A stretch of DNA of 64,000 nt. Origin: an uncultured bacterium. Lineage in GTDB: Bacteria > Omnitrophota > Omnitrophia > Omnitrophales > Aquincolibacteriaceae. The notes under the pieces are model-generated. The model had not been told where the DNA came from and made no database searches. It was given only the letters and a program-made list of their open reading frames with translations. Positions 4,944 through 46,510 of this stretch are shown in pieces. Location of the stretch: assembly GCA_964508905.1 (NCBI GenBank), contig CAZDVO010000001.1:81374-145373 (forward strand), in the 5' to 3' direction. The stretch's first letter is position 1, and every line of letters starts with the position of its first letter. Both the position numbers and the translations under genes were made by a program.

Positions 4944-5930
4944 ATGAGCCTAAACAAGATCGCGGTTGTTGGCGCAGGCGCTTGGGGCACTACGATGGCC
5001 AACCACCTGGCGAGTAAAGCTCAAGAGGTGCGCCTCTGGACCGATCAAAAGGACACTCTGTCGGCGGTGCTGGAAAGAAGGTGTAACGAGCGTTATTTGC
5101 CCGGGGTAAACTTGAACTCCAAAATCCAAGCGACCGATGATATGGCGGCGGCGGCGCAGGGATGCGGCCTTATTGTTTGGGCGCTTCCGGTTCAACATCT
5201 TCGCAAACGCTTGAAACAGTTCCGCCCATTTTTAACCAACAATATGATGGCGATCAACCTGGGCAAAGGGATAGAAGAAAAAACATGGGCGAGACCTTCT
5301 GAGATCCTGACGGAAGAGTACGGGAAGTTTCAAACGGTGGGTTCTCTTATGGGACCCAATATCGCGAAAGAGGTCGCACAAGGTCTTTTTGCCGAAGCCA
5401 CTCTGGCGCTTTCTAATTTTCGCTTTTTGGACAGTCTTCAACCGGTGTTTTCTTCGGATCAGTTCAAGGTCGTTGGCAGTTCGGACCTGACCGGCGTGGA
5501 GCTCGCAGGTGCGCTGAAGAACATCGTGGCGATCGCGGCGGGAATGTGCGACGGCTTTGCGGTGGGAGTGAACACCAAGTCCATTATTGTGGCCAAGGGA
5601 TTGAACGAGATGCGGCGGATCGGCGTGGCCTTAGGTGCTAATCCGGATTCTTTTTTAAGCGAAAGCACCTTAGGGGATCTTCTTACGTCTTGTTTTAGCG
5701 CGAGCGGCCGGAACCGGTGCTTTGGAGAAAGTCTGGCTAAGGGGCGCTCTCCTCAGGATGCCATGGAAGATCTGGCTGGCCGCGTCGCCGAGGGCGTTGC
5801 GACGTGTCATGCATGCCAGGAGCTTAGCGACCGGCTTCGGCTTCAACTCCCGATAATCGGAAGCCTTAGCCGACTTTTGCGAGGCGGGATGGATGCTCGC
5901 GAATGTCTGGAGGAGATGAAGCAGGCCTAG
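4944..5930 (+). CDS. gpsA: NAD(P)H-dependent glycerol-3-phosphate dehydrogenase
   Basis: 328 aa; N-terminal Rossmann motif VVGAGAWGTTMANHLA; GpsA-like throughout; RBS GGAGG. Confidence 0.85.
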   Translation: MSLNKIAVVGAGAWGTTMANHLASKAQEVRLWTDQKDTLSAVLERRCNERYLPGVNLNSKIQATDDMAAAAQGCGLIVWALPVQHLRKRLKQFRPFLTNNMMAINLGKGIEEKTWARPSEILTEEYGKFQTVGSLMGPNIAKEVAQGLFAEATLALSNFRFLDSLQPVFSSDQFKVVGSSDLTGVELAGALKNIVAIAAGMCDGFAVGVNTKSIIVAKGLNEMRRIGVALGANPDSFLSESTLGDLLTSCFSASGRNRCFGESLAKGRSPQDAMEDLAGRVAEGVATCHACQELSDRLRLQLPIIGSLSRLLRGGMDARECLEEMKQA

Positions 5931-13943: not shown

Positions 13944-14017
13944 GCGCCCGTAGCTCAATTGGATAGAGCACGACACTACGGATGTCGGGGTTGCAGGTTC
14001 AACTCCTGCCGGGCGCG
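13944..14017 (+). tRNA. tRNA-Arg (anticodon ACG)
   Basis: 74 nt cloverleaf folded by hand: acceptor GCGCCCG/CGGGCGC, anticodon loop CTACGGA, T-loop TTCAACT; CCA not encoded. Confidence 0.9.
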
Positions 14018-32256: not shown

Positions 32257-33045
32257 TCAGTTCGAGCAAGCGAATGGGGCCAGAGCCCGGAGCATTTCCT
32301 GATGGATCTGACCGTTTGTCGCCAGGTTCTGTAGGCCTAGGAGCGTAAGGGGACTTCCCGAAAAGTCTGTGAGCTTACCTCCCGCCTCTTCGACGATCAT
32401 CATGCCAGCGGCTTTATCCCAAGGAGATAGTTTCATTTCGTAGTAGCCGTCGAAACGGCCACAAGCAACATAGCAAAGGTCGATCGCGGCCGATCCGCCG
32501 CGGCGTATCCCTTGAATCTGGGTCAGGAAAACCCGAAGCATGTTCAAGTAGGTGTCCGGGTCGTTCTTTCGATCGTAGGGAAATCCTGTGGCCAGTAGCG
32601 ATTCCGAAAGAGTCCGGGTCTTGGATACATGGATGGGACGATTGTTCAAAAAGGCACCTTGGCCGCGTTCAGCAAAGAAAAGTTCTTTCCGGAATGGGTC
32701 AAAAACCCCTCCCATGATGAGCTGCCCGCTTTTTTCGAGACCGATCGAAACGGATACGATCGGAAATCCATGAGCAAAATTCGTTGTTCCATCGATCGGG
32801 TCAATGATCCAGCGGTATTCCGATCCGGAGATGGCGGGAGATTCTTCCGCAAGGATCGAGTGGTCGGGAAAGCGTCTCAAAAGGAGGTCGACCACGGCTT
32901 TTTCCGAGGCTTTATCGATCTCGGTAACGAGGTTGAACTCGCCCTTTTTGGTGATCTTTTGTTCCTTTCCGAAATGAGAGCGGATGATCTTGCCGGCCTT
33001 GTCGAGAGCTTCCAAGAGCGTACTTTTAATTTTGGAGGTCTTCAT
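32257..33045 (-). CDS. inositol monophosphatase family protein (SuhB/IMPase-like)
   Basis: about 262 aa; IMPase motifs DPIDGT and WIIDPIDGTTNF-like; the metal-binding D-x-x-D region is present. Confidence 0.7.
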   Translation of the reverse strand: MKTSKIKSTLLEALDKAGKIIRSHFGKEQKITKKGEFNLVTEIDKASEKAVVDLLLRRFPDHSILAEESPAISGSEYRWIIDPIDGTTNFAHGFPIVSVSIGLEKSGQLIMGGVFDPFRKELFFAERGQGAFLNNRPIHVSKTRTLSESLLATGFPYDRKNDPDTYLNMLRVFLTQIQGIRRGGSAAIDLCYVACGRFDGYYEMKLSPWDKAAGMMIVEEAGGKLTDFSGSPLTLLGLQNLATNGQIHQEMLRALAPFACSN

Positions 33046-33161: not shown

Positions 33162-34247
33162 ATGAAATCCTATAATGTCACTTTGATCCCCGGAGATGGT
33201 GTCGGCCCCGAGCTTGCGGAAGCCGCCAAGGCTTGCCTTGAAGCCACAGGAGTTAAATTTAATTGGGATGTCCAAACCGCCGGAATGGACGTGATGGCGG
33301 CAGAAGGGACGCCTCTTCCGGACCGGGTGATCGAATCTATTCGAAAGAACAAGATCGCTATCAAATCGCCTTTGACGACGCCCGTTGGTACCGGGTTCCG
33401 TTCGGTGAACGTGGCCCTCCGCAAGGAGCTTGATCTTTACGCATGTCTCCGCCCTTGCAAATCCTACGCCGGCGTTCGTTCCCGGTATACGAATATCGAT
33501 CTTGTGATCGTTCGTGAGAACACAGAAGACCTTTACGCGGGGATCGAGTTCCAGAAGGGATCCTCCGAAGCGGTTGAGCTGATCGAGCACATCGAAAGAA
33601 TGTCCAAGAAAAAGATCCGTCCGGATTCGGGCATCAGTATCAAACCGATCTCCGTGGCCGGGACGGAGCGTATTGTGAAGTTTGCTTTTGATTATGCGAA
33701 GGCGAATCAACGGAAAAAAGTGACAGCGGTTCACAAGGCCAATATCATGAAGTTTTCAGACGGATTGTTCCTCGAAGTCGCGCGCGAAGTAGCCAAAAAG
33801 TATCCCGGGATCGAATTTGAGGATCGGATCGTTGATAACATGTGCATGCAGCTTGTCCAGAAGCCCGAGCTTTATGATGTGCTCGTTCTCCCGAATCTCT
33901 ACGGAGATATTATTTCGGACCTGTGCGCCGGGCTTGTGGGGGGGTTGGGAGTCGCTCCAGGCGCCAATATCGGAACGAACGGCGCGCTTTTTGAAGCGAC
34001 CCATGGTTCTGCGCCAAAATACAAAGGCATGAACAAACTGAACCCGACGGCGGTCATCCTGTCGGGGGTTCTGATGCTTCGCCATTTGGGAGAGGTTGAA
34101 GCGGCGGCGCGCCTTGAGAAAGCTGTGGCGGATGTGATCCGCGAAGGAAAAGATGTGACCTATGATCTTAAGGACGACCGCAATGATCCTTCGGCCGTTG
34201 GCACGAGGGAAATGGGCGAAGCCATTATTCGAAAGCTGAGGGGGTAA
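33162..34247 (+). CDS. icd: isocitrate/isopropylmalate dehydrogenase family; NAD-dependent isocitrate dehydrogenase is the likely product given the TCA context
   Basis: 361 aa; N-terminus [12 protein letters not shown] and the [10 protein letters not shown] segment, both typical of the family; adjacent to mdh, acnA and gltA. Confidence 0.6.
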
Positions 34248-34248
34248 C

Positions 34249-35178
34249 ATGGGCAAGGCCAAGGTCACCGTTGTAGGCGCCGGTTTTGTTGGTGCGACGA
34301 CGGCGCAGCGACTGATCGAGAAAGAAATTGCCGATGTCGTGTTGGTAGACGTCGTTGAGGGGCTCGCCGCGGGCAAGGCTTTGGACATGATGGAGTCTGC
34401 TTCGGTCGAAGGTTTTTCTTCGAGGATCATCGGGACGCATCGTTATGAAGAGACCGCCGGCTCGGACGTGATCGTGATCACGGCGGGTTTTGCCCGGAAA
34501 CCCGGCATGAGCCGCGACGATCTTCTTTTTAAGAACGCAGAGATCGTAGGCGGCATCGTAACGGAGAGCATAAAGTATTCTCCCCGCGCGGTCATCGTGA
34601 TGGTGACGAACCCGCTGGATGTCATGACTTGGCTTGCGTGGAAGAAGTCCGGATTTCCCGCCGAAAGAGTGATCGGTATGGCGGGCGAGCTTGATTCCTC
34701 GCGGTATGCGTACTTTCTTGCTGAGGCTACCGGTGTCGAGGCGAAAGATGTAAAGGCGATTGTTTTGGGCGGGCACGGCGATCAGATGGTTCCTGTGCCG
34801 CAACACGCTGTGGTCCTTGGGAAACCGGTTGAAAGTTTGATGGATGCGGCAAAGATCGAAGCGATCAACCAGAGGACGCGGGATGGGGGCGCGGAGATCG
34901 TGAAGCTTTTGAAGACGGGGAGCGCTTTTTATGCCCCCTCGTCCGCTGTGGTTAGAACCGTGCGCGCGATCTTGGAGGATGCCGGCGAGGTGATCCCCTC
35001 CTGCGTCTATTTGACGGGTGCCTATGGCTTAAAGGACGTTTACTGCGGGGTTCCGGTGAAGCTCGGTCGCGGTGGCGTCAAACAAGTGGTGGAATTGCCT
35101 CTTACCGAAGGGCAGAAAAGATCGCTACACGCCTCGGCTGAGGACGTTCGGCAGAATTTTCTTAAGCTGAAATTTTAA
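34249..35178 (+). CDS. mdh: malate dehydrogenase (LDH-like type)
   Basis: 309 aa; KVTVVGAGFVGATTA Rossmann motif; GGHGDQMVP active-site region. Confidence 0.85.
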   Translation: MGKAKVTVVGAGFVGATTAQRLIEKEIADVVLVDVVEGLAAGKALDMMESASVEGFSSRIIGTHRYEETAGSDVIVITAGFARKPGMSRDDLLFKNAEIVGGIVTESIKYSPRAVIVMVTNPLDVMTWLAWKKSGFPAERVIGMAGELDSSRYAYFLAEATGVEAKDVKAIVLGGHGDQMVPVPQHAVVLGKPVESLMDAAKIEAINQRTRDGGAEIVKLLKTGSAFYAPSSAVVRTVRAILEDAGEVIPSCVYLTGAYGLKDVYCGVPVKLGRGGVKQVVELPLTEGQKRSLHASAEDVRQNFLKLKF

Positions 35179-35259
35179 GAAGAATGTTAGTCTTGTCGGG
35201 CCAGTGTACAGGCCTTAAAAAAAGTAAGCGCCATTTTTAAATGCTAAAGGGATCTTCTG

Positions 35260-37953
35260 ATGAGTCTGCTGAATAGCTTTGGAAGCAAGGTGACGTTGAA
35301 GATCGCGTCCAAGGAGTACACGATCTATCGCCTTCGGGCGTTGCAGGAATGCGGGATCGCGAAGGTCCAGAGGTTGCCTTTCTCGATCCGGGTGTTGCTG
35401 GAGAATCTGTTGCGGAACGAGGACGGCAAGAACGTCACAAGAAAAGATATCGAACGTCTTGCCACTTGGGACCCGGCGCGCAAGAGCGAACACGAGATCG
35501 CCTTTACTCCAGCCCGAGTGTTGTTGCAGGACTTTACCGGGGTCCCGGCGGTCGTCGATCTTGCGGCGATGAGGGAAGCGATGGTTAAAATGGGCGGAGA
35601 TCCGAAAAAGATCAATCCGCTCCAACCGGTCGATCTCGTGATCGATCATTCGGTGCAGACAGATTTTTTTGGGAGCCCGGAAGCTTTTTCGAAGAACATC
35701 ACCCGGGAGTTCGAGCGCAATCAGGAGCGCTATCAGTTCCTGAAGTGGGGCCAACAGGCTTTCCATAACTTTCGCGTTGTTCCTCCCGCGACGGGCATTA
35801 TCCATCAGGTCAATCTCGAATATCTTTCTCCCGTGATCTTCAGCCGTAAGGAGGGAGGGAAGACCTTTCTCTATCCGGATACGTTGGTTGGGACGGATTC
35901 TCACACCACGATGATCAACGGGCTTGGCGTGCTAGGGTGGGGCGTTGGGGGGATCGAAGCGGAAGCCGCCATGCTCGGTCAACCGATCTCGATGTTGATC
36001 CCGGAAGTGGTGGGAGTGAAGTTTTCCGGAAAACTGGCGGAGGGCGTGACCGCAACCGATCTGGTGCTCACCGTGACCCAGATGCTCCGCAAAAAGGGGG
36101 TTGTCGGGAAATTCGTGGAATTTTTTGGCTCCGGCGTTGGCGAATTATCTCTGGCGGACCGGGCGGTGGTGTCGAACATGGCGCCTGAATATGGCGCCAC
36201 GGCGGGATTTTTCCCGGTGGACCAGGAAACGTTGAATTTTCTCCGTCTGACAGGGCGCAGCGATGAACAAGTCAAGCTGGCGGAGACTTATCTCAAGGAG
36301 CAGGGGCTTTTCCGTGAGGGCGGAGATGAGCGGATCGTTTATTCAGATACCCTCGAGGTCGATCTCGCGAGCGTTGTCCCGAGCCTTGCGGGACCGAAGC
36401 GGCCGCAGGACCGGGTGACGGTGAAGGAGGTTAAACCGTCCTTCACCAAACTTCTCGGTGAAACCGTAAAGAGCAAAGCGGATCTGAAGAAAAAAGCTTT
36501 TATCGATTTTTCTGGAGAAAAATGTGAGTTGGCCCAGGGCGCCGTAGTGATTGCATCGATCACGAGCTGCACGAACACCTCAAGCCCGTCAGTGATGCTA
36601 GCGGCGGGGATCCTGGCGAAGAAAGCACTGCAGAAAGGGTTGACCGTAAAACCCTGGGTCAAGACCAGCCTTGCGCCGGGATCGCAAGTGGTCACGGACT
36701 ATCTTGCGGCGAGTGGTCTTCTTTCCTGTCTCGAGGTCCTAAAGTTCAATCTGGTGGGGTATGGCTGTATGACGTGTATCGGGAATTCAGGGCCGTTGCC
36801 CGAACCTGTGTCGCAAGCGATCAAAGCCAATGATCTGGTGGTTGTCTCGGTCCTTTCCGGGAACCGGAATTTCGAAGGGCGCGTGCATGCCCAGGTCCGG
36901 GCCAACTATCTCGCGTCCCCGCCGCTGGTGGTGGCCTATGCGATCGCGGGTACCATGATGATCGATCTGGAGAAAGATCCGCTTGGGACCGGAAAAAACG
37001 GGAAACCCGTTTATCTGAAGGATATATGGCCTAGCACGGCTGAGATCCGAGAGGCGATGAAGAGCGTGGACCCCGTGATGTTCCGCAATCGTTACCGAAA
37101 TGTTTTTGAGGGTAACGAAGCGTGGCGGGCTTTGGGCGCTCCCTCGGGCGATACCTTTGTGTGGGACAAAAAATCGACCTATGTCAAACATCCGCCCTAT
37201 TTCAAAAAAATGCCGGCGATGCCGACGGAGCTTAAAGATATCAAGGCCGCCCGCGTTCTGGCCGTTCTGGGTGATTCGATCACGACGGACCATATTTCTC
37301 CAGCGGGGTCCATTAAGGTGGACAGTCCTGCCGGGAAGTATCTGGTAGAGCAGGGTGTTCCTCCCGGCGAGTTCAATTCCTATGGATCGCGCCGCGGGAA
37401 TCATGAGGTGATGATGCGCGGGACGTTTGCCAACATCCGTTTGAGGAATCTTCTGGTCCCGGGGGTTGAGGGTGGGATGACCCGTTATTTCCCGGAAGGG
37501 AAGGCCAAACCGATGACTCTCTCGATCTTTGATGCCGCCATGAAATACAAAGAAGAAGACCGTCCTCTCATCATTGTGGCAGGCAAAGAATACGGTTCGG
37601 GTTCTTCACGAGATTGGGCGGCTAAGGGACCGGCGCTTCTCGGGGTTCGCGCGGTGATCGCGGAAAGCTACGAGAGGATCCACCGGAGCAACTTGATCGG
37701 CATGGGGATCCTTCCCCTGCAGTTCTTCCAGGGCCAGAATAGCGCCTCTTTTAAATTGACGGGGGAAGAGCGTTACTCGATCGAAGGAGTGGCCAAGGGC
37801 CTTAAGCCCGGCAAGATCCTTACCGTGAAGACCGTGCAGGGCAGTACGGAAAAGATCTTTGAAGCGGTCTGCCGCATCGACACACCGATCGAACTGGAAT
37901 ATTATCGGCATGGTGGCATTTTGCAATATGTGCTTCGGCAACTGTTGAAGTAG
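35260..37953 (+). CDS. acnA: aconitate hydratase A
   Basis: 897 aa; Fe-S cluster cysteines ([19 protein letters not shown]); SGNRNFEGR motif. Confidence 0.9.
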
Positions 37954-38009
37954 CTCGAAAACCTTTCGCAAAGGCGAAAGGCGGCTAGCGGGATTCGGGG
38001 GAAACGATC

Positions 38010-38369
38010 ATGAAAAAAAATATTGAAAAACGGGCTCGGGTCCGGTTCCGTGTTCCAACCCTGGTCAAACATAAGAAGATCCCGAATGCCATTGCCTATC
38101 GCGTGGCGAACATCAGAGATATTAGCGTGATCGGCATCGCATTTCTGGCCGATCGGGCGGTTCCTCCGGGATCTTCTCTGGAACTTCGTTTTCTGGACCC
38201 CGAGGGAGAGATCCTTGTGACGGAGGGGCAGGTGGTAAACTGCCGGCAGGTCTCCAAACGGCCGAGCTCTTTTCGGGTCGGCGTGCGTTTTGGCCACGTC
38301 TCTGGAGAAGCGCTTGATACGCTGACAAAGGCGGAAGCTTATTTTCTGGAACATAAAAAGAAAAAATGA
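38010..38369 (+). CDS. PilZ-domain protein
   Basis: 119 aa; RARVRFR (RxxxR) and D-I-S-x-x-G (RDISVIGIAF) motifs. Confidence 0.5.
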   Translation: MKKNIEKRARVRFRVPTLVKHKKIPNAIAYRVANIRDISVIGIAFLADRAVPPGSSLELRFLDPEGEILVTEGQVVNCRQVSKRPSSFRVGVRFGHVSGEALDTLTKAEAYFLEHKKKK

Positions 38370-38469
38370 GATACGCCTAGCCGCTATCGCTGAATTCTGA
38401 GGTTATTTTTGAAGCTTTGAGTATAATACCCGCGCTTTTAGGGAACTTTTTAAGGGAGAGGATGAAAGC

Positions 38470-39624
38470 ATGCCAAACAAGAAAAAAGAGCCTTCGAGCG
38501 CTTCGAAGCTGATCAAGGGGTTGGAGGGTGTCGTTGCAGCTCAGACGTCGCTCAGCGATGTGGACGGAGAGAATGGACGCCTTCTTTACCGTGGGCTTCC
38601 GATCGGAGAGCTTGTTGAAAAATCCCACTTTGAAGAAGTTGCTTACCTTCTCTGGTTCGCTAAGCTTCCGAACGCGGCGGAGTTGGAAGCTTTCAAAGAA
38701 ACCCTGAAGGCCCAGAGGCCCTTGTCGGAAGCGGCCATGAATGTTTTAAGGGCGCTTCCCCGCGAAGCTCATCCGATGAGCATTCTTCGCACGATGTGTT
38801 CATTGATGGGGACGCTGGATCCTCGCGCCCATATCGTGAATCCCGAAGAGTCCCAGCGTAAGGCCTACCATTTGACGGGGGTATTCCCGACGATCATCGC
38901 GGCGTTTTATCGGCTTCGGGAAGGAAAAGAACCCATTGTTCCGGACATGAGCCTTTCGCATGCCGCAAATTTTCTTTACATGCTCAGTGGGAAAAAACCG
39001 ACGCCTGAAATGGAAAAAGCTCTTGATGCATACTTGATCCTTTTGGCAGACCACGGATTGAACGCCTCGACGTTTGCGGCGCGCGTGACGACCGGAACCC
39101 TCTCGAACCTTTATTCGGCGGTGACTTCTGCCGTCGGCACTCTGGCGGGGGAACTTCACGGTGCGGCGAATCAATACGCAATGGAAATGATCCTTGAGAT
39201 CGGGGCTCCCTCGAACGCGGCGAGTTACGTCAACAAGCTTTTGGATGAGAAAAAGAAGGTCATGGGATTCGGGCACCGGATCTATAAAACGCGTGATCCG
39301 CGGGCGGAAGCTTTTCGTCAGATCGCGGCGGATCTTTGTGTGAAGGCCGGGAAGACGGAGTGGATGGAGATCGCGGCCCACGTTGAAAAGGTCATGATGG
39401 ATCGGAAAAATATCCCCTGCAACGTGGATTTTTTCTCAGCGCCCGTTCTCTACGTGTTGGGATTTCCGCCGGACTTCTTTACCACCGTTTTTGCGGCAAG
39501 CCGCGTGGCCGGATGGAGCGGACATATTATCGAGCAACAGCTTGATAACCGTTTGATCCGCCCGCTGGCGGAATATATCGGGCCGCAGGAGCAGTATTAC
39601 ATCCCGAGCGAACAGCGCGTCTAG
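38470..39624 (+). CDS. gltA: citrate synthase
   Basis: 384 aa; GFGHRIYK active-site motif; DHG catalytic region (LILLADHGLNAST). Confidence 0.85.
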   Translation: MPNKKKEPSSASKLIKGLEGVVAAQTSLSDVDGENGRLLYRGLPIGELVEKSHFEEVAYLLWFAKLPNAAELEAFKETLKAQRPLSEAAMNVLRALPREAHPMSILRTMCSLMGTLDPRAHIVNPEESQRKAYHLTGVFPTIIAAFYRLREGKEPIVPDMSLSHAANFLYMLSGKKPTPEMEKALDAYLILLADHGLNASTFAARVTTGTLSNLYSAVTSAVGTLAGELHGAANQYAMEMILEIGAPSNAASYVNKLLDEKKKVMGFGHRIYKTRDPRAEAFRQIAADLCVKAGKTEWMEIAAHVEKVMMDRKNIPCNVDFFSAPVLYVLGFPPDFFTTVFAASRVAGWSGHIIEQQLDNRLIRPLAEYIGPQEQYYIPSEQRV

Positions 39625-39704: not shown

Positions 39705-41069
39705 ATGGCCTCAAACCTTGATTATGCCTATGATCAATATTTGAAGGCTCAAGAAACCCGAGCCCTTCCCGCGATCCTTCATTTTCAAGAGAAGTTAAAA
39801 ACCCCCGCTTTTGCTTACGGCCGCTTTACCGTTCCCGCGTTCTACAAGGCGTATTTTGTCACGCCCAAACAGCAGCACCTTCTCAAACGCGTCGCGGCGA
39901 CATTCTCTCAGATCCTCAACAAGACCGCGCGTTTCTATTTCGAAGAAACACAGATGCGCGCCCGTTTCGGTCTTTCTCCGGAAGCTGAGGAACTGATCCG
40001 TATCGATCCTGGCTATTCTCAGCACGTCGTGTTCAGCCGTTTCGACGCGCTTCTGGAGGGCGAAAGCCTGAAGCTTCTGGAATTCAATAGCGACGTTCCT
40101 GCGGGCGCAGCCTATGCGGATCAATTAGAAGCAGCCCTTCTTTCCGACGAGCTTTTTAAACCATTCGCGGAAGAAAATCATTTGGCGGCAAGCGAACGCG
40201 TTCAGGGGATCCTCTCGACGTTGTTGGCAGTCTATGAAGAATTCGGGGGCTATGAGACGCCGCAGATCGCGATCGTGGCCTGGCGGCATGCCCGAGCGTT
40301 GGCGGCTTTTGAACATATGAAGCGGTATTTTGAATCCAAAGGATACAAAACCGTTGTAGCGGATCCTCGGGAGCTTCAGTACAAGGGAGGGAAGCTCTAT
40401 CACAAGGGATTTCGCGTCCACCTTGCTTATCGAGCCATCGCCTTTGAAGAGATATTGGAGCGTCTCGATGAGGTCCAGGATCTTCTGCGGGCCTACAAAG
40501 ACAAGGCGGTCTGTCTGGTCAATCCGCTACGGTCAAGGCTTGCATCCAGCAAATCGATCGTTTCTCTCCTGACGACGCCGGAATGCGACCGCTATTTCAC
40601 GGAAAATGAGAATGACATGAAACGGCAGCATCTTCCCTGGACCCGATGTTTATCCGACGCGGAAGATTTTTATGGGCACCGGAAGGTTTTTTTGATCGAT
40701 TTTTTAAAAGATGAAAAGGATACGGTCGTGCTCAAACCTTCGGGGTCGAGCCATGGCCCGCGGCGGGTTTATATCGGACGTGAGACGCCGGATGGAGATT
40801 GGAACGCGGCCGTGGACCGGGCCCTGAAGGAGCAGGATTGGGTCATCCAGGAGCAAGTCCCGGTGCCTCTGATGACGGTGCCCGAGGGGGTGAACCAGAA
40901 GCTGGATTTTGCTTACAAAAAACATAATTTTAATTTATTAGTGTCCGGTGGAAAATACGCCGGAGGTTTTGTGCGACTAAGCGATGAAAGCGTGGTCAAT
41001 GTCGGAACGGGGGGCGGGCTGATGCCGGCTTTGTGGACCGATGTCGCGCCCGATCATTTTGGGGCTTGA
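39705..41069 (+). CDS. circularly permuted ATP-grasp (type 2)-like amidoligase family protein
   Basis: 454 aa; an E-x-N motif (LEFNSD) sits in the N-terminal third, which fits a permuted ATP-grasp; remainder matches remembered family features only loosely. Confidence 0.4.
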   Translation: MASNLDYAYDQYLKAQETRALPAILHFQEKLKTPAFAYGRFTVPAFYKAYFVTPKQQHLLKRVAATFSQILNKTARFYFEETQMRARFGLSPEAEELIRIDPGYSQHVVFSRFDALLEGESLKLLEFNSDVPAGAAYADQLEAALLSDELFKPFAEENHLAASERVQGILSTLLAVYEEFGGYETPQIAIVAWRHARALAAFEHMKRYFESKGYKTVVADPRELQYKGGKLYHKGFRVHLAYRAIAFEEILERLDEVQDLLRAYKDKAVCLVNPLRSRLASSKSIVSLLTTPECDRYFTENENDMKRQHLPWTRCLSDAEDFYGHRKVFLIDFLKDEKDTVVLKPSGSSHGPRRVYIGRETPDGDWNAAVDRALKEQDWVIQEQVPVPLMTVPEGVNQKLDFAYKKHNFNLLVSGGKYAGGFVRLSDESVVNVGTGGGLMPALWTDVAPDHFGA

Positions 41070-41122
41070 ACCGTCGTCATGCTCGGTGTAGGCTTAGCTT
41101 CGGTAGCGATCCTGAGGGGAAA

Positions 41123-41536
41123 ATGGAACCCGTGAAAAACAGAAAGATCTTTTCGAAGGCGGAAGCCGAAGCGTTGCTTCCCGAGCTAGAGAGCCGGTTG
41201 AAGGACCTTCATCAAAAAAAGGACGCTTATAATCGCGTTCATGATTCTCTTTTCATGCACGAACTCCTCTGCGATGCTGAACGATCCCAAGGGTTTTCAG
41301 AGGGGACGGAAGATCTTGAAACAAGTATGTTCGCCCTCGAAGAAGCGATCGAAGCTCTCGCGAAAGATGTTGAGGCGATCTTCGCTTTGGGGTGCTTTCT
41401 TCGGCACATCGAAAAGGGAATTATCGAGTTTCACGGTGTTCATGAAGGGCGAGATGTGTTTTTTTTATGGCGTCGCGGTGAACCCATCATCACCCGTTAC
41501 CGGCTTCCTCGGGAAAAGACAGAAAAAAAGCTCTGA
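41123..41536 (+). CDS. hypothetical protein (possibly a DUF2203-like partner of the ATP-grasp protein)
   Basis: 137 aa from the ATG after GAGGGGAAA; charged/coiled N-terminus; no recognisable catalytic motif. Confidence 0.35.
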   Translation: MEPVKNRKIFSKAEAEALLPELESRLKDLHQKKDAYNRVHDSLFMHELLCDAERSQGFSEGTEDLETSMFALEEAIEALAKDVEAIFALGCFLRHIEKGIIEFHGVHEGRDVFFLWRRGEPIITRYRLPREKTEKKL

Positions 41537-41608
41537 ACCCAAAGTTTCCCCATTCGACTTCCTGCCGCACGAGATGCTAACCGTTTCAAATCTCCAAAGA
41601 GGGGCTGT

Positions 41609-42820
41609 CTAAGCGCGCACCCATTCTGTCTTTTCGGGCGGGACCATATCCGGTAAGGGATCCAACGAGGGATCAAGGCTGTTTAGCGCATCGTAAGGGT
41701 TGGGGGATTCTTCGACGGGTAGTGATATGTCTTCCGGTGGTGTTTCCGGGGTCGGCGTCGCTTTCGGGGCGGGAGGCGCTGAAACGGGTTCTGTGGAAGG
41801 TACCGGCTGTGGTGATGTTGCCGGCAGTGTAGCTTTTGGGGCAGGCGGTTCTTCTTTTTTCGGGACGACTTTCTCGACCTGTTTTGGGGCTTTTTCCGGA
41901 ACGGGGGAAGCTTTCCTGGGCTTGGCGGTGGGAGCGGGCTGGCTCTGAACGCTTTTGGCCGCTTCCACCGATGGCTTGGGGGGCGGGGGCGTTCGGGCAG
42001 CGAAGCGAGGGTTCTTTTCATCAAGAAAAACCTCTTTCGTCCCTTGAGGGACCCTTAGCACGAATTCCATAGGATCCATGTCGTCCAAGGCTTTTAGCGC
42101 AACGAAGAAGATGGCGCTTCCTTTTCGTTTCTCGCTGGAAAGGATCGTGATCTTTTTCGGGAAAATGATCGAATGGAAAGCCCCCACGCGCATCGGGATC
42201 TCCCGGAAATCATAGCGCTGGATCTCTGTTTCAGGACGGCCCTTCGGATCATAAAAGATCTCACCGAGGACATCCCCTTCAGAGGAAAGATAAAGTTTTC
42301 GGGCCAAGGCGCCCTTGGCGTCCCGCTGGCTGTAGACGTCGAGGCTGGTGAGCGCCGGGTTGGCGCGGTCGATCTTGGCACGGCGGGGGTCTACGGCGAG
42401 CGGCTTGAGTGCCCGGTAGAGGTCCCGGACCTGCAGATGACTTTCGATCTCGGGAGAATCTTCGAGGTCGAAGATCGTTCCATGATAAACGGTTTGCTGA
42501 GAGGGAAGGTAAAGATCGAACCGGCGGTCGAATGAGCGAAAAGCGAAGACCAGCTCGTCCCGCGTGTCCACGCAGCTGAGGAACATGCGTTCTTCCAGGC
42601 GATGGTAAAGAAGCTCTCCACTGCACATGGCGCGGGCGTGGTCTGCTCCGGCAAAAAAGAGGAGAATGTCCGCGCGGAGCGCGACCCACCGGTAATGGCG
42701 GGAAGCGATCTTGTGAAGAAGTTCTTCAACCTCGGGAGGAGCGGAGGCCTGTCCGGATGGAACGGCTACGGATAAGGCAAAGAAAACTCCGACAAGCAGG
42801 GAGCAGAGCAGGCGGCGCAT
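41609..42820 (-). CDS. secreted protein with a Pro/Ala/Lys-rich low-complexity C-terminal tail
   Basis: about 403 aa from the internal ATG; signal peptide MRRLLCSLLVGVFFALSVAVPSG; last about 120 aa are a PxxP/KA-rich linker-like tail; start overlaps the upstream stop. Confidence 0.4.
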   Translation of the reverse strand: MRRLLCSLLVGVFFALSVAVPSGQASAPPEVEELLHKIASRHYRWVALRADILLFFAGADHARAMCSGELLYHRLEERMFLSCVDTRDELVFAFRSFDRRFDLYLPSQQTVYHGTIFDLEDSPEIESHLQVRDLYRALKPLAVDPRRAKIDRANPALTSLDVYSQRDAKGALARKLYLSSEGDVLGEIFYDPKGRPETEIQRYDFREIPMRVGAFHSIIFPKKITILSSEKRKGSAIFFVALKALDDMDPMEFVLRVPQGTKEVFLDEKNPRFAARTPPPPKPSVEAAKSVQSQPAPTAKPRKASPVPEKAPKQVEKVVPKKEEPPAPKATLPATSPQPVPSTEPVSAPPAPKATPTPETPPEDISLPVEESPNPYDALNSLDPSLDPLPDMVPPEKTEWVRA

Positions 42821-42822
42821 GC

Positions 42823-43437
42823 CTAGCTCTGCGGCGTTTCGGAGAGGATCTTTTTTGTGTGAAGGATGCGTTGAATGGCCGTTAGATGTGTGCCCACGAG
42901 CAGGATCACGAGCACCCACTTCAGAAGCGGGGTGACAAGTGTGCCGATGATCAGCAGGATCACCCGCTCTGCTCTTCCAAAACGGCCGACGCCGCAATCT
43001 TTGATGAAGTTTTCAGCGCGCGCCTTGGCATAGCTTACCGTGATAGATCCGAGGATTACGCCGAGCGTGACGAAGAAAAAGAAGATCTCGCCGTTCCGGG
43101 CAAAATAAGCCGCGAGGCCCGCGAATACAAAGAAATCCGCGTAACGGTCCATGACTGAATCCAGAAATGCCCCGAACGGGGTCATCTTCCCCGTTGTGCG
43201 GGCCAGGAGGCCGTCCAGGAGATCGGCCGCTCCCGAGATGAAAAGCATGATCCCGCCGAGGAAGAGATAACCCTTGGCGTAGATCACGCCGGTCAGGAGA
43301 CTGAGTGCCGCGCCCGCGAGGGTCAGCTGGTTGGGTGTGATCCCCTGGGCCTTGAGGAACGATACGATCGCATTCGCGATCGGTTCCACCTTGGGGTACA
43401 CCGTTTCACGCAGGGACATAGGGCCTACCGGGGACAA
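42823..43437 (-). CDS. CDP-alcohol phosphatidyltransferase, likely phosphatidylinositol-phosphate synthase
   Basis: 204 aa membrane protein; full D-G-x2-A-R-x8-G-x3-D-x3-D motif (DGLLARTTGKMTPFGAFLDSVMD); overlaps the ino1 stop. Confidence 0.65.
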   Translation of the reverse strand: MSPVGPMSLRETVYPKVEPIANAIVSFLKAQGITPNQLTLAGAALSLLTGVIYAKGYLFLGGIMLFISGAADLLDGLLARTTGKMTPFGAFLDSVMDRYADFFVFAGLAAYFARNGEIFFFFVTLGVILGSITVSYAKARAENFIKDCGVGRFGRAERVILLIIGTLVTPLLKWVLVILLVGTHLTAIQRILHTKKILSETPQS

Positions 43438-44540
43438 GTTCCCTGGATGAACTTGCGGACCAGTTCTTTGGCTTCATAGTCCACGATCTGTTTGGGTGGA
43501 TGTTTCATCGTATAGGCCGACATGGAGATGAGCGGTCCGCCGATCTTGCGGTCCCGGGCGATCTTGCATGCGCGGATGGCGTCGATGGAGCAGCCCGCGC
43601 TGTTCGGCGAGTCCTCGACGGACAGGCGCATTTCCGCCGTGACGGGGAAACCGCCGAAACCGCGTCCTTCGATTCGAAGGTAGCAGACCTTGTTATCGTT
43701 TTGCCAGGGAACATAGTCCGAAGGGCCGATATGGATATTATCCTCATCCAGCGGAACATCCAGCTGGCTTTGGACGGCGGATGTTTTGGATATCTTTTTG
43801 GATTCCAGGCGGGCGCGGTTAAGCATGTTCAGGAAGTCCGTGTTCCCGCCCGTATTGAGCTGGTAAGTCCGGTCGATCTTGACGCCGCGGTCCATAAAAA
43901 GTTTTGCGAGGGTGCGGTGTGTGACCGTTGCGCCGATCTGGGCTTTGATATCATCGCCGACACAGGGGATGCGCTTGGCTTCAAACCGCTTGGCCCAAGC
44001 CGGGTTGGAAACAATAAAGACCGGCATACAGTTGATGAGACTGACGCCTGTTTTCAGGCAGGCTTCAGCGTAGAACTCGGTCGCTTTTTGAGAACCGACG
44101 GGGAGGTAGTTGATAAGGACCTCGGCGCCGCTTTCTTTGAGGATTTTCTCGACGTTACAGGGTTTTCTGTCGGAGGGGAGGAAGGTGCGGTCGTCCTTGT
44201 AATGAGCCATGTGTTCCGAGCAACCGTCCAAAATGTGGCCCATTTCGACGATGACCTTGCTTTTGGGGACGGGACCGATGGACCAAACGCAGTTCGGCTT
44301 TGCCTTCAACGCAACATCAAGACGCTCGCCCACCTTCCGCCGGTCGATATCAAAAGCCGCCACCACCTCGATATCGTGGGGGAAATAGCCGCCGACATCG
44401 TAATTCATCAATCCAAAGCACTCGACGGGCTTCTTTTTACCGCCTTTTTGGTTGGCCAGGGACCGATAGTATTCAATCCCTTGGATGAGTGACGCCGCAC
44501 AATTCCCAGCGCCCACAATAGCGATCTTGATCTTCCCCAT
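43425..44540 (-). CDS. ino1: myo-inositol-1-phosphate synthase (short archaeal/bacterial type)
   Basis: 371 aa; N-terminal NAD-binding IAIVGAGNCASSL-like motif (KIAIVGAGNCAASLIQGIEYY); RBS AGGAGG. Confidence 0.8.
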   Translation of the reverse strand: MGKIKIAIVGAGNCAASLIQGIEYYRSLANQKGGKKKPVECFGLMNYDVGGYFPHDIEVVAAFDIDRRKVGERLDVALKAKPNCVWSIGPVPKSKVIVEMGHILDGCSEHMAHYKDDRTFLPSDRKPCNVEKILKESGAEVLINYLPVGSQKATEFYAEACLKTGVSLINCMPVFIVSNPAWAKRFEAKRIPCVGDDIKAQIGATVTHRTLAKLFMDRGVKIDRTYQLNTGGNTDFLNMLNRARLESKKISKTSAVQSQLDVPLDEDNIHIGPSDYVPWQNDNKVCYLRIEGRGFGGFPVTAEMRLSVEDSPNSAGCSIDAIRACKIARDRKIGGPLISMSAYTMKHPPKQIVDYEAKELVRKFIQGTCPR

Positions 44541-44780
44541 GAATTCCTCCTCTTGATTTTAAAATGAGAACGACGAAATCCTCGATAGGCGGCAGATTAT
44601 GATAGCAGTAAGTTATTGGAAATCAAGCGAAACGAGGCTGTTCTAAGCAATTTTGGCAGTTGGAGTTATGGCTGTTACGTCCGATAACCCTCTATTTTTT
44701 TGAGCTTTTCAGCCGATTTTTTTGTGCTAAAATGCCGTCCATTCCATTTATTCATGCCACCTCAAGACAGGAGTTTTTTT

Positions 44781-45101
44781 ATGCCGTCCTATGAAGATTT
44801 CCAGAAACTAGAGATCAAAATAGCCGAAATCGAGACTGTCACCCCTCATCCCAATGCGGATCGCCTCTATGTTTTGGGGTTAAAGGTTGGAGAAGTTCGC
44901 AAACAGATCGTTGCCGGAATTCGGGCCCACTACACGGAGGACCAGCTCAAAGGGAAAAAGATCGTCATTATCGATAATCTGGACCCGGCCGTGATCCGCG
45001 GGGTCGAATCCCAGGGAATGTTGCTCGCGGCGTCCGACGCCTCAGGGTTAACGCTAGTGGTCCCCGAGCGTCCGATCTCGGATGGCGCGAAGGTGAAATA
45101 A
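44781..45101 (+). CDS. tRNA-binding domain protein (CsaA/Myf/EMAP-like OB fold)
   Basis: 106 aa; LEIKIAEIETVTPHPNADRLYVLGLKVG...VVPE pattern of the tRNA-binding arm domain. Confidence 0.6.
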   Translation: MPSYEDFQKLEIKIAEIETVTPHPNADRLYVLGLKVGEVRKQIVAGIRAHYTEDQLKGKKIVIIDNLDPAVIRGVESQGMLLAASDASGLTLVVPERPISDGAKVK

Positions 45102-45172
45102 CCGAAGATCCTTCTCCCGTAAGGAGGCATCTTCTTGTCAAACCCAAAGACGTATGCTACCATCCCGTCTCT

Positions 45173-46510
45173 ATGAAAACAGCACAAGCCTCCGCCGGAT
45201 CCCGTACGAAGCTCGATTTTCAGCCTTTTAAGGCATGGCGTTACGACCCCGCGCGCGTGGATGTCTCAACGGTGCTGGCGCCTCCTTATGATGTTATTTC
45301 CTCAGAGAAACAGCAGAAGCTGTATGACCGCTCTCTCTATAATTGCATTCGTCTCATCCTGAATAAAAAAGATCCTTCGGATAACGACAAGATCAATGGC
45401 TATACGCGTGCTCGCGATGCCTTTCAAGAATGGCAAAAGCAGGGCATCCTGACGCAGGAAAAGGAACCTTCCTTCTATATCTATCGCCAAACCTTCAAGG
45501 ATCCCGCGACCGGCGAGGTCAAAAACCGTTCGGCCCTGCTGGGCCGTGTTCGGCTGGAACCCTTTGAAAAAGGGATCATCGTTCCTCATGAGAAGACCCT
45601 AAGCGGACCCAAGGTGGACCGGATGCGTCTTCTTAAGACCGTCCAAACGAATTTTTCGCCGGTATTCGGCCTCTACAAGGACCAAGATTCTAAAGTGGGC
45701 AGCGTGATCTGTGATCCCAAGAGCGCTACGCCGATCTTTGAGGCCGAAGATGACGATAAGATCTTGCACACGCTTTTGGTCGTGAAAGATCCCGTCCTGG
45801 TTGAAAAGCTGCATACCGCGCTGGAATCCAAACAGGTCTATATTGCCGATGGTCATCATCGCTATGAAACGGCGCTTGAATATGCCCGTCTTAAACGTGA
45901 AGAACTTGGCGCGTCGCCTTCCGATCGCTTTGCCTTCGATTATATGTACATGGCGCTGGTGAGTTTTAACGATCCAGGGTTCATTGTGTTGCCGACCCAC
46001 CGCATCCTTCTCGATCTTGGGATGAGCGATGCCGACGCGCTCAAGCGGCTTGAAGGTTATTTCAGCATTACAAAGGCGTCGCTTAAAGAGATCGAGACCA
46101 TGGTGCTTTCAAAATCCACGGACCCCATGACGTTCGGCTTGACGCTTAAGTCCGGCGGGGCTTATCTTTTGAAGCTGCTGGATAAGGCGAAGGCGCGGCA
46201 AAAAGTCGCTCAAGAAAAGCCGGACGTTTGGTTCGATCTGAACGTGAACATGCTCGGGCATCTGATCTTCGCGAAGCTGTTGGATCTTCCGGAAACTAAA
46301 TGGGAATCGGTGCTTCGCTTCGATCACACGGTTGAAGGGACAATGGATCTGATGAAGAAAGAAAATGCCCAAGCGGCCTTTTTTCTGCAGGCTCCGGAAG
46401 TTGGTATGCTGGAGAAAATGGGTGCCGTGAATGAACGCATGCCGCAGAAATCCACCTATTTTTATCCGAAGCTCGCGACTGGGCTTATTTTTCATTCGCA
46501 CAAAGAATAA
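45173..46510 (+). CDS. DUF1015-like conserved hypothetical protein
   Basis: 445 aa; N-terminal FQPFKAWRY...LAPPYDVIS resembles the DUF1015 signature as remembered; a TTGTCA-N17-TACCAT promoter lies upstream. Confidence 0.4.
   Translation: MKTAQASAGSRTKLDFQPFKAWRYDPARVDVSTVLAPPYDVISSEKQQKLYDRSLYNCIRLILNKKDPSDNDKINGYTRARDAFQEWQKQGILTQEKEPSFYIYRQTFKDPATGEVKNRSALLGRVRLEPFEKGIIVPHEKTLSGPKVDRMRLLKTVQTNFSPVFGLYKDQDSKVGSVICDPKSATPIFEAEDDDKILHTLLVVKDPVLVEKLHTALESKQVYIADGHHRYETALEYARLKREELGASPSDRFAFDYMYMALVSFNDPGFIVLPTHRILLDLGMSDADALKRLEGYFSITKASLKEIETMVLSKSTDPMTFGLTLKSGGAYLLKLLDKAKARQKVAQEKPDVWFDLNVNMLGHLIFAKLLDLPETKWESVLRFDHTVEGTMDLMKKENAQAAFFLQAPEVGMLEKMGAVNERMPQKSTYFYPKLATGLIFHSHKE

What the first reader, a model, noticed from the sequence alone, without database searches (positions are those of the whole stretch)
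41609..44540. Translationally coupled operon ino1 - CDP-alcohol phosphatidyltransferase - secreted Pro-rich protein: a candidate bacterial phosphatidylinositol pathway
A short archaeal/bacterial-type myo-inositol-1-phosphate synthase overlaps (ATGA-type) a 204-aa CDP-alcohol phosphatidyltransferase carrying the complete D-G-x2-A-R...G-x3-D-x3-D motif. That gene in turn overlaps a 400-aa exported protein whose last about 120 residues are a Pro/Ala/Lys-rich linker. Known bacterial PI synthesis (actinobacteria, some Bacteroidetes) condenses inositol-1-phosphate with CDP-diacylglycerol through exactly such a transferase, then dephosphorylates; an IMPase-family phosphatase is encoded 9 kb away at 32257. 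No cytidylyltransferase domain is fused, which argues against the thermophile di-myo-inositol-phosphate route. Inositol lipids are rare in bacteria, and the co-transcribed secreted protein could be a lipid-binding or carrier partner.
Basis: partly seen in the sequence, partly recalled or inferred. Interest (0 to 1): 0.55.

Follow-up and report, generated by a model that had tools for sequence, protein, structure and literature searches.

The report
Inositol-lipid operon with LolA-like partner
An uncultured Omnitrophota bacterium carries a tight three-gene operon whose first two genes should make an inositol phospholipid, and whose third encodes a periplasmic lipid-carrier-fold protein found only next to that lipid synthase, so it is probably a carrier dedicated to that rare lipid.

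Summary
The three minus-strand genes are packed with gaps of 5 and 2 nt; they do not overlap ATGA-style.

- **Gene 1 (43425-44540)** is a myo-inositol-phosphate synthase, 52% identical to M. tuberculosis Ino1.
- **Gene 2 (42823-43419)** is a CDP-alcohol phosphotransferase of the PIP/AIP-synthase type. It has the full signature and all four inositol-phosphate pocket residues. PgsA and DIPPS models score poorly.

X is restricted to Omnitrophota. It lay directly downstream of the transferase in 45 of 45 X-anchored loci and in 43 of 47 transferase-anchored species loci. Eight of those loci have no synthase gene nearby.

More distant relatives of X are LolB-like lipoproteins. Two of the six with readable contexts also sit beside inositol genes, in different gene orders.

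The best reading is a two-step phosphatidylinositol pathway plus a dedicated periplasmic carrier or receptor for its product. The IMPase gene 9 kb away shows no link to the operon. The pathway is known; the LolA-like partner appears undescribed. All of this is inference from sequence, with no biochemistry.

The parts
44599..44626 (-). Promoter-like site (TTGATT-16-TATCAT, with TG) about 60 nt upstream of the first gene
   Evidence: It is the only minus-strand promoter-like match in 41300-44800. Such matches are not enriched over shuffles (2 found, 1.5 expected), so this is weak evidence.
44546..44551 (-). Shine-Dalgarno AGGAGG, 5 nt before the ATG of the synthase gene
   Evidence: Read directly from the sequence.
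43425..44540 (-). myo-Inositol-1-phosphate (inositol-3-phosphate) synthase, 371 aa
   Evidence: Pfam PF01658, 126 bits. TIGR03450, 425 bits over the full model length. M. tuberculosis Ino1 (1gr0), 383 bits and 52% identity over residues 3-367.
42823..43419 (-). CDP-alcohol phosphotransferase of the phosphatidylinositol-phosphate / archaetidylinositol-phosphate synthase type, 198 aa (an alternative TTG start at 43437 gives 204 aa)
   Evidence: NCBIfam and PDB hits. Signature D66..D91 and pocket residues S129, K132, R152, R184, which correspond to MtPIPS S132, K135, R155, R195.
41609..42820 (-). Gene X: exported LolA/LolB-superfamily protein with a disordered tail, 403 aa
   Evidence: No Pfam or NCBIfam hit. 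111 homologues, and every source name given is Omnitrophota. Structure models. Fold searches.
42746..42820 (-). Signal peptide of X (about residues 1-25, MRRLLCSLLVGVFFALSVAVPSGQA). The cleavage site was judged by eye. There is no conserved lipobox.
   Evidence: Sequence. Low-confidence N-terminal helix in the models. 174 of 184 family members lack a lipobox Cys.
41981..42739 (-). LolA/LolB-like beta-barrel domain of X (residues about 28-280). It includes the family-specific segment G114-T-I-F-D-L-E-D-S-P-E-I-E-S-H128 and the helix DLYRALKP.
41612..41980 (-). Pro/Ala/Lys/Glu-rich C-terminal tail of X (residues 281-403), predicted disordered
   Evidence: Composition. pLDDT mostly below 50 in the full-length model. 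The tail is present in about half of the family (97 of 184 members exceed 310 aa).
41663..41680 (-). Conserved near-C-terminal motif S-L-D-P-S-L (family consensus TTLDPSVxPS)
   Evidence: Alignment. Found in 78 of 184 family members and only once in the window. Function unknown.

Best explanation
This is an inositol-phospholipid operon of a Candidatus Omnitrophota bacterium.

- **Step 1 (assigned by homology).** The synthase cyclises glucose-6-phosphate to L-myo-inositol-1-phosphate.
- **Step 2 (assigned by homology plus substrate-pocket residues).** The membrane transferase condenses that product with a CDP-activated lipid to give phosphatidylinositol phosphate. The donor is presumably CDP-diacylglycerol.
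- **Step 3 (inferred).** A phosphatase not encoded here removes the phosphate to give phosphatidylinositol.
- **Step 4 (inferred from fold, export signal and gene linkage).** Protein X is secreted to the periplasm as a soluble LolA/LolB-fold protein. It takes the acyl chains of this inositol lipid, or a derivative, into its half-barrel cavity. Its family-specific acidic/His segment may read the head group. It then carries or hands the lipid over towards the outer membrane.

In this clade the disordered Pro-rich tail, with its conserved end motif, may act as a tether or docking arm.

X appears to descend from LolB-like lipoproteins. It has lost their lipid anchor and occurs only directly behind the transferase gene.
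For: **Enzyme identities**
- Family and structure hits.
- The full CDP-alcohol signature and S129/K132/R152/R184 are conserved across the Omnitrophota transferases. The signature residues, K132, R149, R152 and R184 are invariant in a 24-sequence alignment; S129 is at least 90% conserved. They correspond to residues whose mutation cripples MtPIPS.
- Positions lining the lipid groove (MtPIPS M69, L70, P153) are small here (L67, L68, A150). This fits a lipid donor.

**Fold of X**
- Confident model.
- Distant sequence relatives reach the Pfam LolA_like and DUF4292 thresholds.

**Linkage**
- 45 of 45 X-anchored loci have the transferase immediately upstream on the same strand.
- 43 of 47 informative Omnitrophota species loci found through the transferase have X immediately downstream. 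The gap is mostly -1 to +3 nt.
- Eight loci keep transferase-X although the synthase gene is absent from the locus.
- Neighbouring genes are inserted or lost around the unit.

**Independent arrangements among the distant lipoprotein relatives**
- L133: transferase, then a long-type synthase, then an X-like gene.
- L132: synthase, then an X-like gene.

**Precedents**
- LolA2/LolB2 are encoded in flexirubin operons, and Bacteroidota LolB1 requires a disordered C-terminal domain.
- LprG handles PI-anchored glycolipids in mycobacteria.
- In Desulfobacterales, related transferase genes sit next to a YhdP-family protein.
Against: - No lipid binding, localisation or lipid product has been measured. 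Omnitrophota are uncultured.
- The whole neighbourhood (tRNA_bind, DUF1015, DUF2203, GSP_synth) is syntenic across the phylum. Part of the adjacency is therefore inherited, not selected.
- X-like lipoproteins occupy the same genomic slot in genomes that have no inositol genes there (L129, L134).
- Others pair with canonical LolA or with a LolC/E-like permease (L130, L128). The ancestral role was therefore probably lipoprotein sorting.
- Four Omnitrophota species keep synthase-transferase without X (L028, L046, L047, L055).
- The transferase scores below the curated cut-offs of both the PIP-synthase and AIP-synthase models.
- I could not map the conserved polar residues onto the cavity, because model coordinates are not exposed.
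Confidence: 0.5

Rival explanations
1. X is simply this lineage's general lipoprotein-sorting factor, a LolA or LolB analogue. Its position behind the transferase is inherited synteny with no specific link to inositol lipid. The first two genes still make PIP/PI.
For: - Fold.
- Distant relatives are lipoproteins next to LolA (L130) or a LolC/E-like permease (L128).
- Relatives also sit in the same slot without inositol genes (L129, L134).
- Strong phylum-wide synteny of the flanks.
Against: - The soluble X subfamily was never found away from the transferase (45 of 45).
- It differs sharply from the lipoprotein relatives. There is a score gap (full-length members mostly above 140 bits, against 76 bits or less), the lipobox is lost, and a conserved acidic/His segment is gained.
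- X is dispensable in four species that keep the enzymes.
- Two different gene orders, one with a non-orthologous synthase type, again join an X-like gene to inositol genes.
Confidence: 0.25
2. The transferase does not make diacyl-PIP. It uses another donor or acceptor. Candidates are an ether or isoprenoid CDP-lipid (archaetidylinositol-phosphate-like), or a soluble CDP-alcohol that would give an inositol-phosphodiester solute.
For: - The best NCBIfam model is the archaeal AIP synthase (154 bits, against 123 for bacterial PIP synthase), and both scores are below cut-off.
- MtPIPS D31, implicated in CDP-DAG binding, is Asn here.
Against: - No cytidylyltransferase domain or gene lies in or beside the operon. 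The DIPPS model scores only 68 of the 580 bits required.
- The lipid-groove positions are small residues, as in lipid-using PIPS.
- The host is a bacterium.
- A lipid-carrier-fold partner fits a lipid product.
Confidence: 0.08
3. X is not a carrier but an enzyme or processing factor built on the LolA fold, as VioE is. It could be the missing PIP phosphatase or a head-group-modifying activity acting on the periplasmic face.
For: - X has an unusually large set of invariant polar residues for a carrier: E77, D98, D118, S127, H128, D133, K139, D183, E187, R202.
- No phosphatase is encoded in the operon.
Against: - No known phosphatase motif or family hit.
- PIP is made at the cytoplasmic face, whereas X is exported.
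- Four species have the enzymes without X.
- The closest fold matches are all carriers or receptors.
Confidence: 0.07

Closest known systems
Actinobacterial two-step PI synthesis: Ino1 plus PgsA1/PIP synthase (M. tuberculosis, Renibacterium salmoninarum)
   Same: - Same two enzyme families.
- The synthase is 52% identical to Mtb Ino1.
- The transferase shares the signature and the inositol-phosphate pocket residues.
- In both systems the PIP phosphatase is not encoded with the synthase genes (for the known system).
   Different: - Different phylum.
- The transferase scores below the curated PIPS cut-off.
- No PimA-type mannosyltransferase sits beside it. Chloroflexota loci L061 and L069 do have one.
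- A LolA-fold gene is fused into the operon instead.
Bacteroides thetaiotaomicron inositol-lipid cluster BT_1522-BT_1526 (Heaver et al. 2022, PMC9246714)
   Same: A bacterial cluster that pairs MIPS with a PIP synthase.
   Different: - The BT cluster includes a PgpA-like PIP phosphatase and an inositol-phosphoceramide synthase. Neither is present here.
- The BT_1523-type model scores only 88 of the 350 bits required.
- No LolA-like partner is mentioned in the passages of that paper I retrieved.
LolA2/LolB2 of Flavobacterium johnsoniae, encoded in the flexirubin operon, and Bacteroidota LolB1 (PMC11885536; P. gingivalis LolB 9tpm, PMC13103446)
   Same: - LolA/LolB-fold paralogues encoded inside a biosynthetic locus for an outer-membrane lipid, and proposed to be dedicated to it.
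[quoted passage not shown]
   Different: - X has no direct Pfam hit and no lipobox.
- The proposed cargo is a glycerophospholipid, not a pigment.
- There is a single gene, not a LolA/LolB pair.
- The flexirubin role is itself untested.
Mycobacterial LprG (and LppX)
   Same: An envelope lipid-binding protein that moves PI-anchored glycolipids (PIM, LM, LAM) outward. This is a functional analogy to the proposed role of X.
   Different: - LprG is a lipoprotein and is encoded with an MFS pump, not with the PI synthase.
- X is therefore not a member of that family.

Membership tests
myo-Inositol-1-phosphate synthase (Pfam PF01658; Ino1) | Catalytic Inos-1-P_synth domain above the curated threshold | tested here: met
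   126.4 bits against a cut-off of 27, covering the whole profile 1-107.
myo-Inositol-1-phosphate synthase (Pfam PF01658; Ino1) | End-to-end similarity to a solved, characterised enzyme, including the N-terminal NAD-binding GxGNCA(A/S)S motif and the Lys-rich LESKKISKT segment | tested here: met
   1gr0 (M. tuberculosis Ino1): 383 bits, residues 3-367 aligned, 52% identity. Both segments are conserved or identical. I did not map individual catalytic residue numbers from the literature.
myo-Inositol-1-phosphate synthase (Pfam PF01658; Ino1) | NCBIfam equivalog TIGR03450 (mycothiol-type INO1) cut-off | tested here: not met
   425.5 bits against a cut-off of 638. The protein belongs to the enzyme family but not to that actinobacterial equivalog.
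Phosphatidylinositol-phosphate / archaetidylinositol-phosphate synthase (class I CDP-alcohol phosphotransferase) | Eight-residue signature D1xxD2G1xxAR...G2xxxD3xxxD4 | tested here: met
   D66-L-L-D69-G70-L-L-A73-R74 ... G83-A-F-L-D87-S-V-M-D91. It is invariant in 24 Omnitrophota homologues.
Phosphatidylinositol-phosphate / archaetidylinositol-phosphate synthase (class I CDP-alcohol phosphotransferase) | Inositol-phosphate pocket: two Arg (MtPIPS R155, R195; RsPIPS R153, R191) plus Ser132 and Lys135. The paper states that the two Arg are absent from eukaryotic PI synthases. | tested here: met
   These align to R152, R184, S129 and K132 of the window protein. K132, R149, R152 and R184 are invariant, and S129 is at least 90% conserved.
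Phosphatidylinositol-phosphate / archaetidylinositol-phosphate synthase (class I CDP-alcohol phosphotransferase) | Curated equivalog score (NF045883 PIPS, 170; NF040950 AIPS, 180) | tested here: not met
   123.2 and 153.9 bits. These are the closest families, but the protein forms a separate clade below both cut-offs.
Phosphatidylinositol-phosphate / archaetidylinositol-phosphate synthase (class I CDP-alcohol phosphotransferase) | Lipid donor (CDP-diacylglycerol or CDP-archaeol) and PIP as the product | not testable with these tools
   Indirect only. The groove positions equivalent to MtPIPS M69, L70 and P153 are small residues: L67, L68, A150.
PgsA (phosphatidylglycerophosphate synthase) | TIGR00560 / PRK10832 equivalog score | tested here: not met
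   31.2 bits against 109, and 22.6 bits against 304. Several public annotations of homologues as PgsA are probably wrong.
[quoted passage not shown] | Fused or adjacent CTP:inositol-1-phosphate cytidylyltransferase, plus the DIPPS equivalog score | tested here: not met
   The protein is 198 aa with a single domain. NF041135 scores 68 bits against 580. No cytidylyltransferase is present in the operon or in related loci.
LolA/LolB superfamily (Pfam clan with LolA, LolB, LolA_like, DUF4292, DUF1329) | Unclosed antiparallel beta-barrel with an N-terminal helix and internal lid helices | tested here: met
LolA/LolB superfamily (Pfam clan with LolA, LolB, LolA_like, DUF4292, DUF1329) | Direct profile hit to a member family | tested here: not met
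   No Pfam or NCBIfam hit at E <= 0.01. The link is only transitive. Distant relatives found with the X profile reach LolA_like (49 and 43.5 bits against 30) and DUF4292 (37.5 bits against 23).
LolB (outer-membrane lipoprotein receptor) | N-terminal lipobox Cys (lipid anchor) | tested here: not met
   The window protein has no lipobox at the cleavage region. 174 of 184 full-length family members lack one, whereas most distant relatives carry one.
LolA (periplasmic lipoprotein chaperone) | Functional pairing with LolCDE and LolB, with lipoprotein acyl chains as cargo | not testable with these tools
   No LolA homologue or X paralogue occurs in the 64-kb window. The rest of the genome was not available.
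LprG/LppX mycobacterial glycolipid carriers | Lipoprotein anchor and the LppX/LprG fold as closest structural relatives | tested here: not met

The most novel reading that the evidence does not exclude
X gave up the N-terminal lipoprotein anchor of its ancestors because it is held on, or inserted into, the outer membrane through the operon's own inositol lipid. The attachment could be a very tight head-group-specific complex or a covalent link. Either would be a bacterial counterpart of PI-based protein anchoring. The Pro-rich tail and its conserved T-L-D-P-S-V end motif would be the attachment or docking element.
Probability: 0.05. Interest if true: 0.9.

Novelty: new variant of a known kind. 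Interest (0 to 1): 0.5.

Why it matters
Inositol phospholipids are rare in bacteria. Their synthesis is characterised mainly in Actinobacteria and Bacteroidetes.

This locus extends the pathway to Omnitrophota, an uncultured phylum. It also ties the pathway to a dedicated LolA/LolB-fold periplasmic protein.

How individual phospholipid species reach the outer membrane is still being worked out. From general knowledge, the AsmA-like bridges such as YhdP were recognised only recently. A soluble, head-group-specific LolA-type carrier for a glycerophospholipid would be a new route.

The idea can be tested without growing the organism. The three genes could be expressed in E. coli, which makes no PI. 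The parallel transferase-NUDIX-YhdP arrangement in Desulfobacterales suggests that pairing inositol-lipid synthesis with its own envelope transport is a recurring solution.

On a practical level, many public annotations call these transferases PgsA, which is probably incorrect.

Tried and rejected
- **IMPase at 32257 as the PIP phosphatase: rejected.** It is a generic family member and is separated from the operon by icd, mdh, acn and citrate synthase. It does not appear in the related loci I inspected.
- **PgsA and DIPPS identities for the transferase: rejected** on model scores and domain content.
- **Profile search seeded with the most divergent X members**. It returned only the same family.
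- **Exhaustive search of 1.84 billion representatives**. It gave 145 hits in all, so the family really is small.
- **AFDB50 fold library:** not available.
- **Full-length AlphaFold run,** to see whether the conserved C-terminal motif docks onto the barrel. The tail stayed disordered (pLDDT about 45-55), so it gave no information.
- **Rfam scan**. It found only four tRNAs and no RNA element in or before the operon.
- **Promoter and terminator scan**. One plausible promoter lies upstream of gene 1, but match counts are no higher than in shuffled sequence.
- **Search for a LolA homologue or an X paralogue in the window**: none found.
- **Classical GPI-type C-terminal signal in X:** not present. 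The C-termini have no hydrophobic tail.
- **Literature searches** for Omnitrophota or Omnitrophica with inositol, and for LolA-like with phosphatidylinositol. They found nothing relevant in the held library, which is not all of the literature.
- **Phylogenetic tree of the transferase:** not built. Reference sequences could not be imported, so curated-model scores and pocket residues stand in for it.


Full report
**Observation**

The region 41609-44540 holds three minus-strand ORFs. They are bounded by a convergent DUF2203 gene (41033-41536, +) and a divergent tRNA-binding-domain gene (44700-45101, +). An AGGAGG sits 5 nt before the first ATG. A single promoter-like site lies at 44626-44599, though such matches are no commoner than in shuffled sequence.

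The junctions read TAG-gccct-ATG and TAG-gc-ATG. The genes are therefore 5 and 2 nt apart, not overlapping. An overlap appears only if the transferase starts at TTG 43437. Gene callers on identical contigs, and nearly all homologues, use the 198-aa ATG form.

**Organism**

Every homologue that carries a source name is from Candidatus Omnitrophota or Omnitrophica MAGs. Contigs identical to the window occur in two public runs.

**Gene 1**

- Pfam Inos-1-P_synth scores 126 bits, and TIGR03450 aligns over its whole length at 425 bits. That is below the 638-bit equivalog cut-off, which is tuned to actinobacterial mycothiol producers.
- The best solved relative is M. tuberculosis Ino1 (1gr0): 383 bits, residues 3-367, 52% identity. 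The NAD motif and an identical LESKKISKT stretch are included.
- The next-best solved match, a five-membered-cyclitol-phosphate synthase, scores far lower at 177 bits.

I take this gene to be a genuine inositol-phosphate synthase.

**Gene 2**

- NCBIfam ranks archaetidylinositol-phosphate synthase first (154 bits), then bacterial PIP synthase (123), the BT_1523 type (88), DIPPS (68) and PgsA (31). None reaches its curated cut-off.
- The best solved relatives are the PIP synthases of Renibacterium (5d91/5d92, E about 3e-20) and M. tuberculosis (6h53).
- Clarke et al. 2015 showed that two arginines (MtPIPS R155, R195), with S132 and K135, form the inositol-phosphate pocket. [quoted passage not shown]
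- By alignment these four residues are R152, R184, S129 and K132 here. The two arginines and K132 are invariant and S129 is at least 90% conserved across 24 Omnitrophota homologues, and the eight signature residues are all invariant.
- Positions that line the lipid groove in MtPIPS (M69, L70, P153) are small residues here (L67, L68, A150). One presumed CDP-DAG contact, D31, is Asn.
- There is no cytidylyltransferase domain or gene.

Conclusion: this is an inositol-phosphate-using phosphatidyltransferase from a clade of its own. The lipid donor cannot be read from sequence.

**Gene 3 (X)**

- It has no Pfam or NCBIfam hit.
- 111 homologues were found by word-seeded search. Only 145 hits at E <= 1e-3 came from an exhaustive HMMER pass over 1.84 billion cluster representatives.
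- An AlphaFold model of residues 1-285, built with a 111-sequence alignment, is confident (pLDDT 87, pTM 0.80). It shows an N-terminal helix, about 13 strands and two short internal helices.
- The C-terminal 123 residues are 26% proline and are predicted disordered in the full-length model. About half the family has such a tail. A near-terminal T-L-D-P-S-V motif recurs in 78 of 184 members.

**Linkage**

- *Starting from X.* All seven loci retrieved by exact-protein look-up have the transferase immediately upstream on the same strand. So do all 38 informative metagenome loci found with an X profile. None has X alone. Some of these loci are near-duplicates.
- *Starting from the transferase in one genome per GTDB species.* 49 Omnitrophota loci were retrieved. 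X follows directly in 43 of the 47 informative ones, usually with a gap of -1 to +3 nt.
- Eight of those have no synthase gene within 5 kb upstream. There the tRNA_bind gene abuts the transferase, yet they keep transferase-X.
- Four species keep synthase-transferase without X (L028, L046, L047, L055).
- The flanks are broadly syntenic across the phylum, with blocks inserted or lost around the unit. Part of the adjacency is therefore inheritance.

**Distant relatives**

Below the core family there is a second tier of full-length relatives. Their whole-library E-values run from 1e-16 to 1e-4, at 35-76 bits.

- They weakly or clearly match Pfam LolA_like and DUF4292.
- Most carry a lipobox cysteine, and they lack X's acidic/His segment.

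Seven contexts could be read:

| Locus | Context |
|---|---|
| L129, L134 | Same Omnitrophota slot, no inositol genes |
| L130 | Followed by a canonical LolA, with a 4-nt overlap |
| L128 | Followed by a MacB_PCD/FtsX (LolC/E-like) permease |
| L132 | Directly after a synthase 81% identical to the window's |
| L133 | Transferase (43% identical), then a long-type 476-aa synthase, then the X-like lipoprotein |
| (P0323, no locus) | Uninformative |

My reading is that X descends from LolB-like lipoproteins of the Lol pathway. Genes of this fold family have been joined to inositol-lipid genes more than once. The subfamily that sits directly behind the transferase lost its lipid anchor and acquired a conserved polar segment: G-S-I-F-D-L-E-D-S-P-x-I-E-S-H, then H-L-K-x-x-D-L-Y-R-A-L-K-P. 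The DLYRA core is kept even in the most divergent members.

**Mechanism**

The assignments of synthase and transferase are made by homology. Removal of the phosphate, flipping of the lipid, and uptake by X are inferred. I favour X as a soluble periplasmic carrier or receptor for the inositol lipid, with the tail as a tether.

Three precedents support this:
- LolA2/LolB2 are encoded in flexirubin operons and proposed to serve that lipid.
- Bacteroidota LolB1 requires a disordered C-terminal domain.
- LprG moves PI-anchored glycolipids in mycobacteria.

A parallel was also seen here. In Desulfobacterales, related transferase genes are followed by a NUDIX gene and a YhdP-family gene.

**Rivals**

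- The generic Lol-factor reading is the strongest rival, at about 0.25.
- An alternative donor or acceptor for the transferase is less likely.
- An enzymatic X is also less likely.

**Known versus new**

The enzyme pair is the known bacterial/archaeal two-step route. The protein X, its exclusive pairing with the transferase and its apparent derivation from LolB-like lipoproteins were not found in the literature held here. I rate the locus as a new variant of a known kind.

**Limits**

- There are no experimental data.
- No complete genome was available, so the presence of a canonical Lol set and of a PIP phosphatase is unknown.
- No model coordinates were available, so the cavity and the polar segment could not be related in space.
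- No phylogenetic tree was built.

Noticed in passing
L056 2557-7063; likewise L058, L059, L060, L062, and partly L065 and L071: In Desulfobacterales MAGs a PIPS-like transferase gene is followed on the same strand, with overlapping ends, by a Zn-ribbon NUDIX gene. Next comes a roughly 1130-aa YhdP-family protein (Pfam YhdP 112.5 bits against a cut-off of 46). From general knowledge this family is implicated in phospholipid transport between the two membranes. No synthase gene lies nearby.
   Followed up: partly
L035-L038, L041, L052-L054 (transferase at about 4998-5600 in each): Eight Omnitrophota species keep the transferase-X pair, but the synthase gene is missing from the locus and the tRNA_bind gene abuts the transferase. 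The source of inositol phosphate in these genomes is unknown.
   Followed up: partly
L133 168-3136 and L132 16-1424: Lipoprotein-type distant relatives of X sit next to inositol genes in other orders. One is transferase, then a long NAD_binding_5-type synthase (476 aa), then X-like. The other is a short synthase (81% identical to the window's), then X-like, with no transferase between them.
   Followed up: partly
L130 5001-6481; L128 1377-3307: Other lipoprotein-type relatives of X are co-directional with a canonical LolA (4-nt overlap) or with a MacB_PCD/FtsX permease. This points to a Lol-pathway origin for the family.
   Followed up: partly
L061 3-2288; L069 3714-5555: Two Chloroflexota-type MAGs (Dehalococcoidia L061, Chloroflexia L069) place a GT4 glycosyltransferase (the family that includes PimA) directly upstream of the PIPS-like gene. 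In L061 a synthase gene fragment precedes it. This resembles the actinobacterial PI-mannoside arrangement.
   Followed up: partly
L075 3439-8320; L083 3292-8188 (also L077, L080): In Planctomycetota the order is rpsT, synthase, a longer PIPS-like gene (266-286 aa), a UbiE/COQ5-family methyltransferase, and then a 619-aa polytopic membrane protein with no Pfam hit. All are on one strand.
   Followed up: no
window 41663-41680 (X residues 381-386): A conserved near-C-terminal motif [ST]-L-D-P-S-[VL]-x-P-S follows the Pro-rich linker. It is shared by 78 of 184 family members and is unique in the window. I recognise no matching sorting signal.
   Followed up: partly
window 33162-39624: A TCA block lies on the plus strand between the IMPase gene and the operon: isocitrate dehydrogenase (33162-34247), malate/lactate dehydrogenase (34249-35178), aconitase (35260-37953) and type II citrate synthase (38470-39624). 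In related genomes succinyl-CoA ligase subunit genes join this neighbourhood.
   Followed up: partly
window 39705-41536 and 44700-46510: The conserved neighbours of the operon across Omnitrophota have unclear function. They are a glutathionylspermidine-synthase-like ATP-grasp protein, DUF2203, a small tRNA-binding-domain protein and DUF1015. In other species an agmatine/polyamine block (PvlArgDC, CN_hydrolase, PAD_porph) and Fpg are inserted next to X.
   Followed up: no
homologues listed: Many public records annotate the Omnitrophota transferase as CDP-diacylglycerol-glycerol-3-phosphate 3-phosphatidyltransferase or PgsA. The curated models contradict this (pgsA 31 bits against 154 for AIP synthase).
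   Followed up: yes
window 1-64000: GC skew is positive in almost every 2-kb bin, so the cumulative skew rises steadily. This suggests that the window lies within one replichore. Four tRNA genes lie at 13944, 14729, 60394 and 63919.
   Followed up: no
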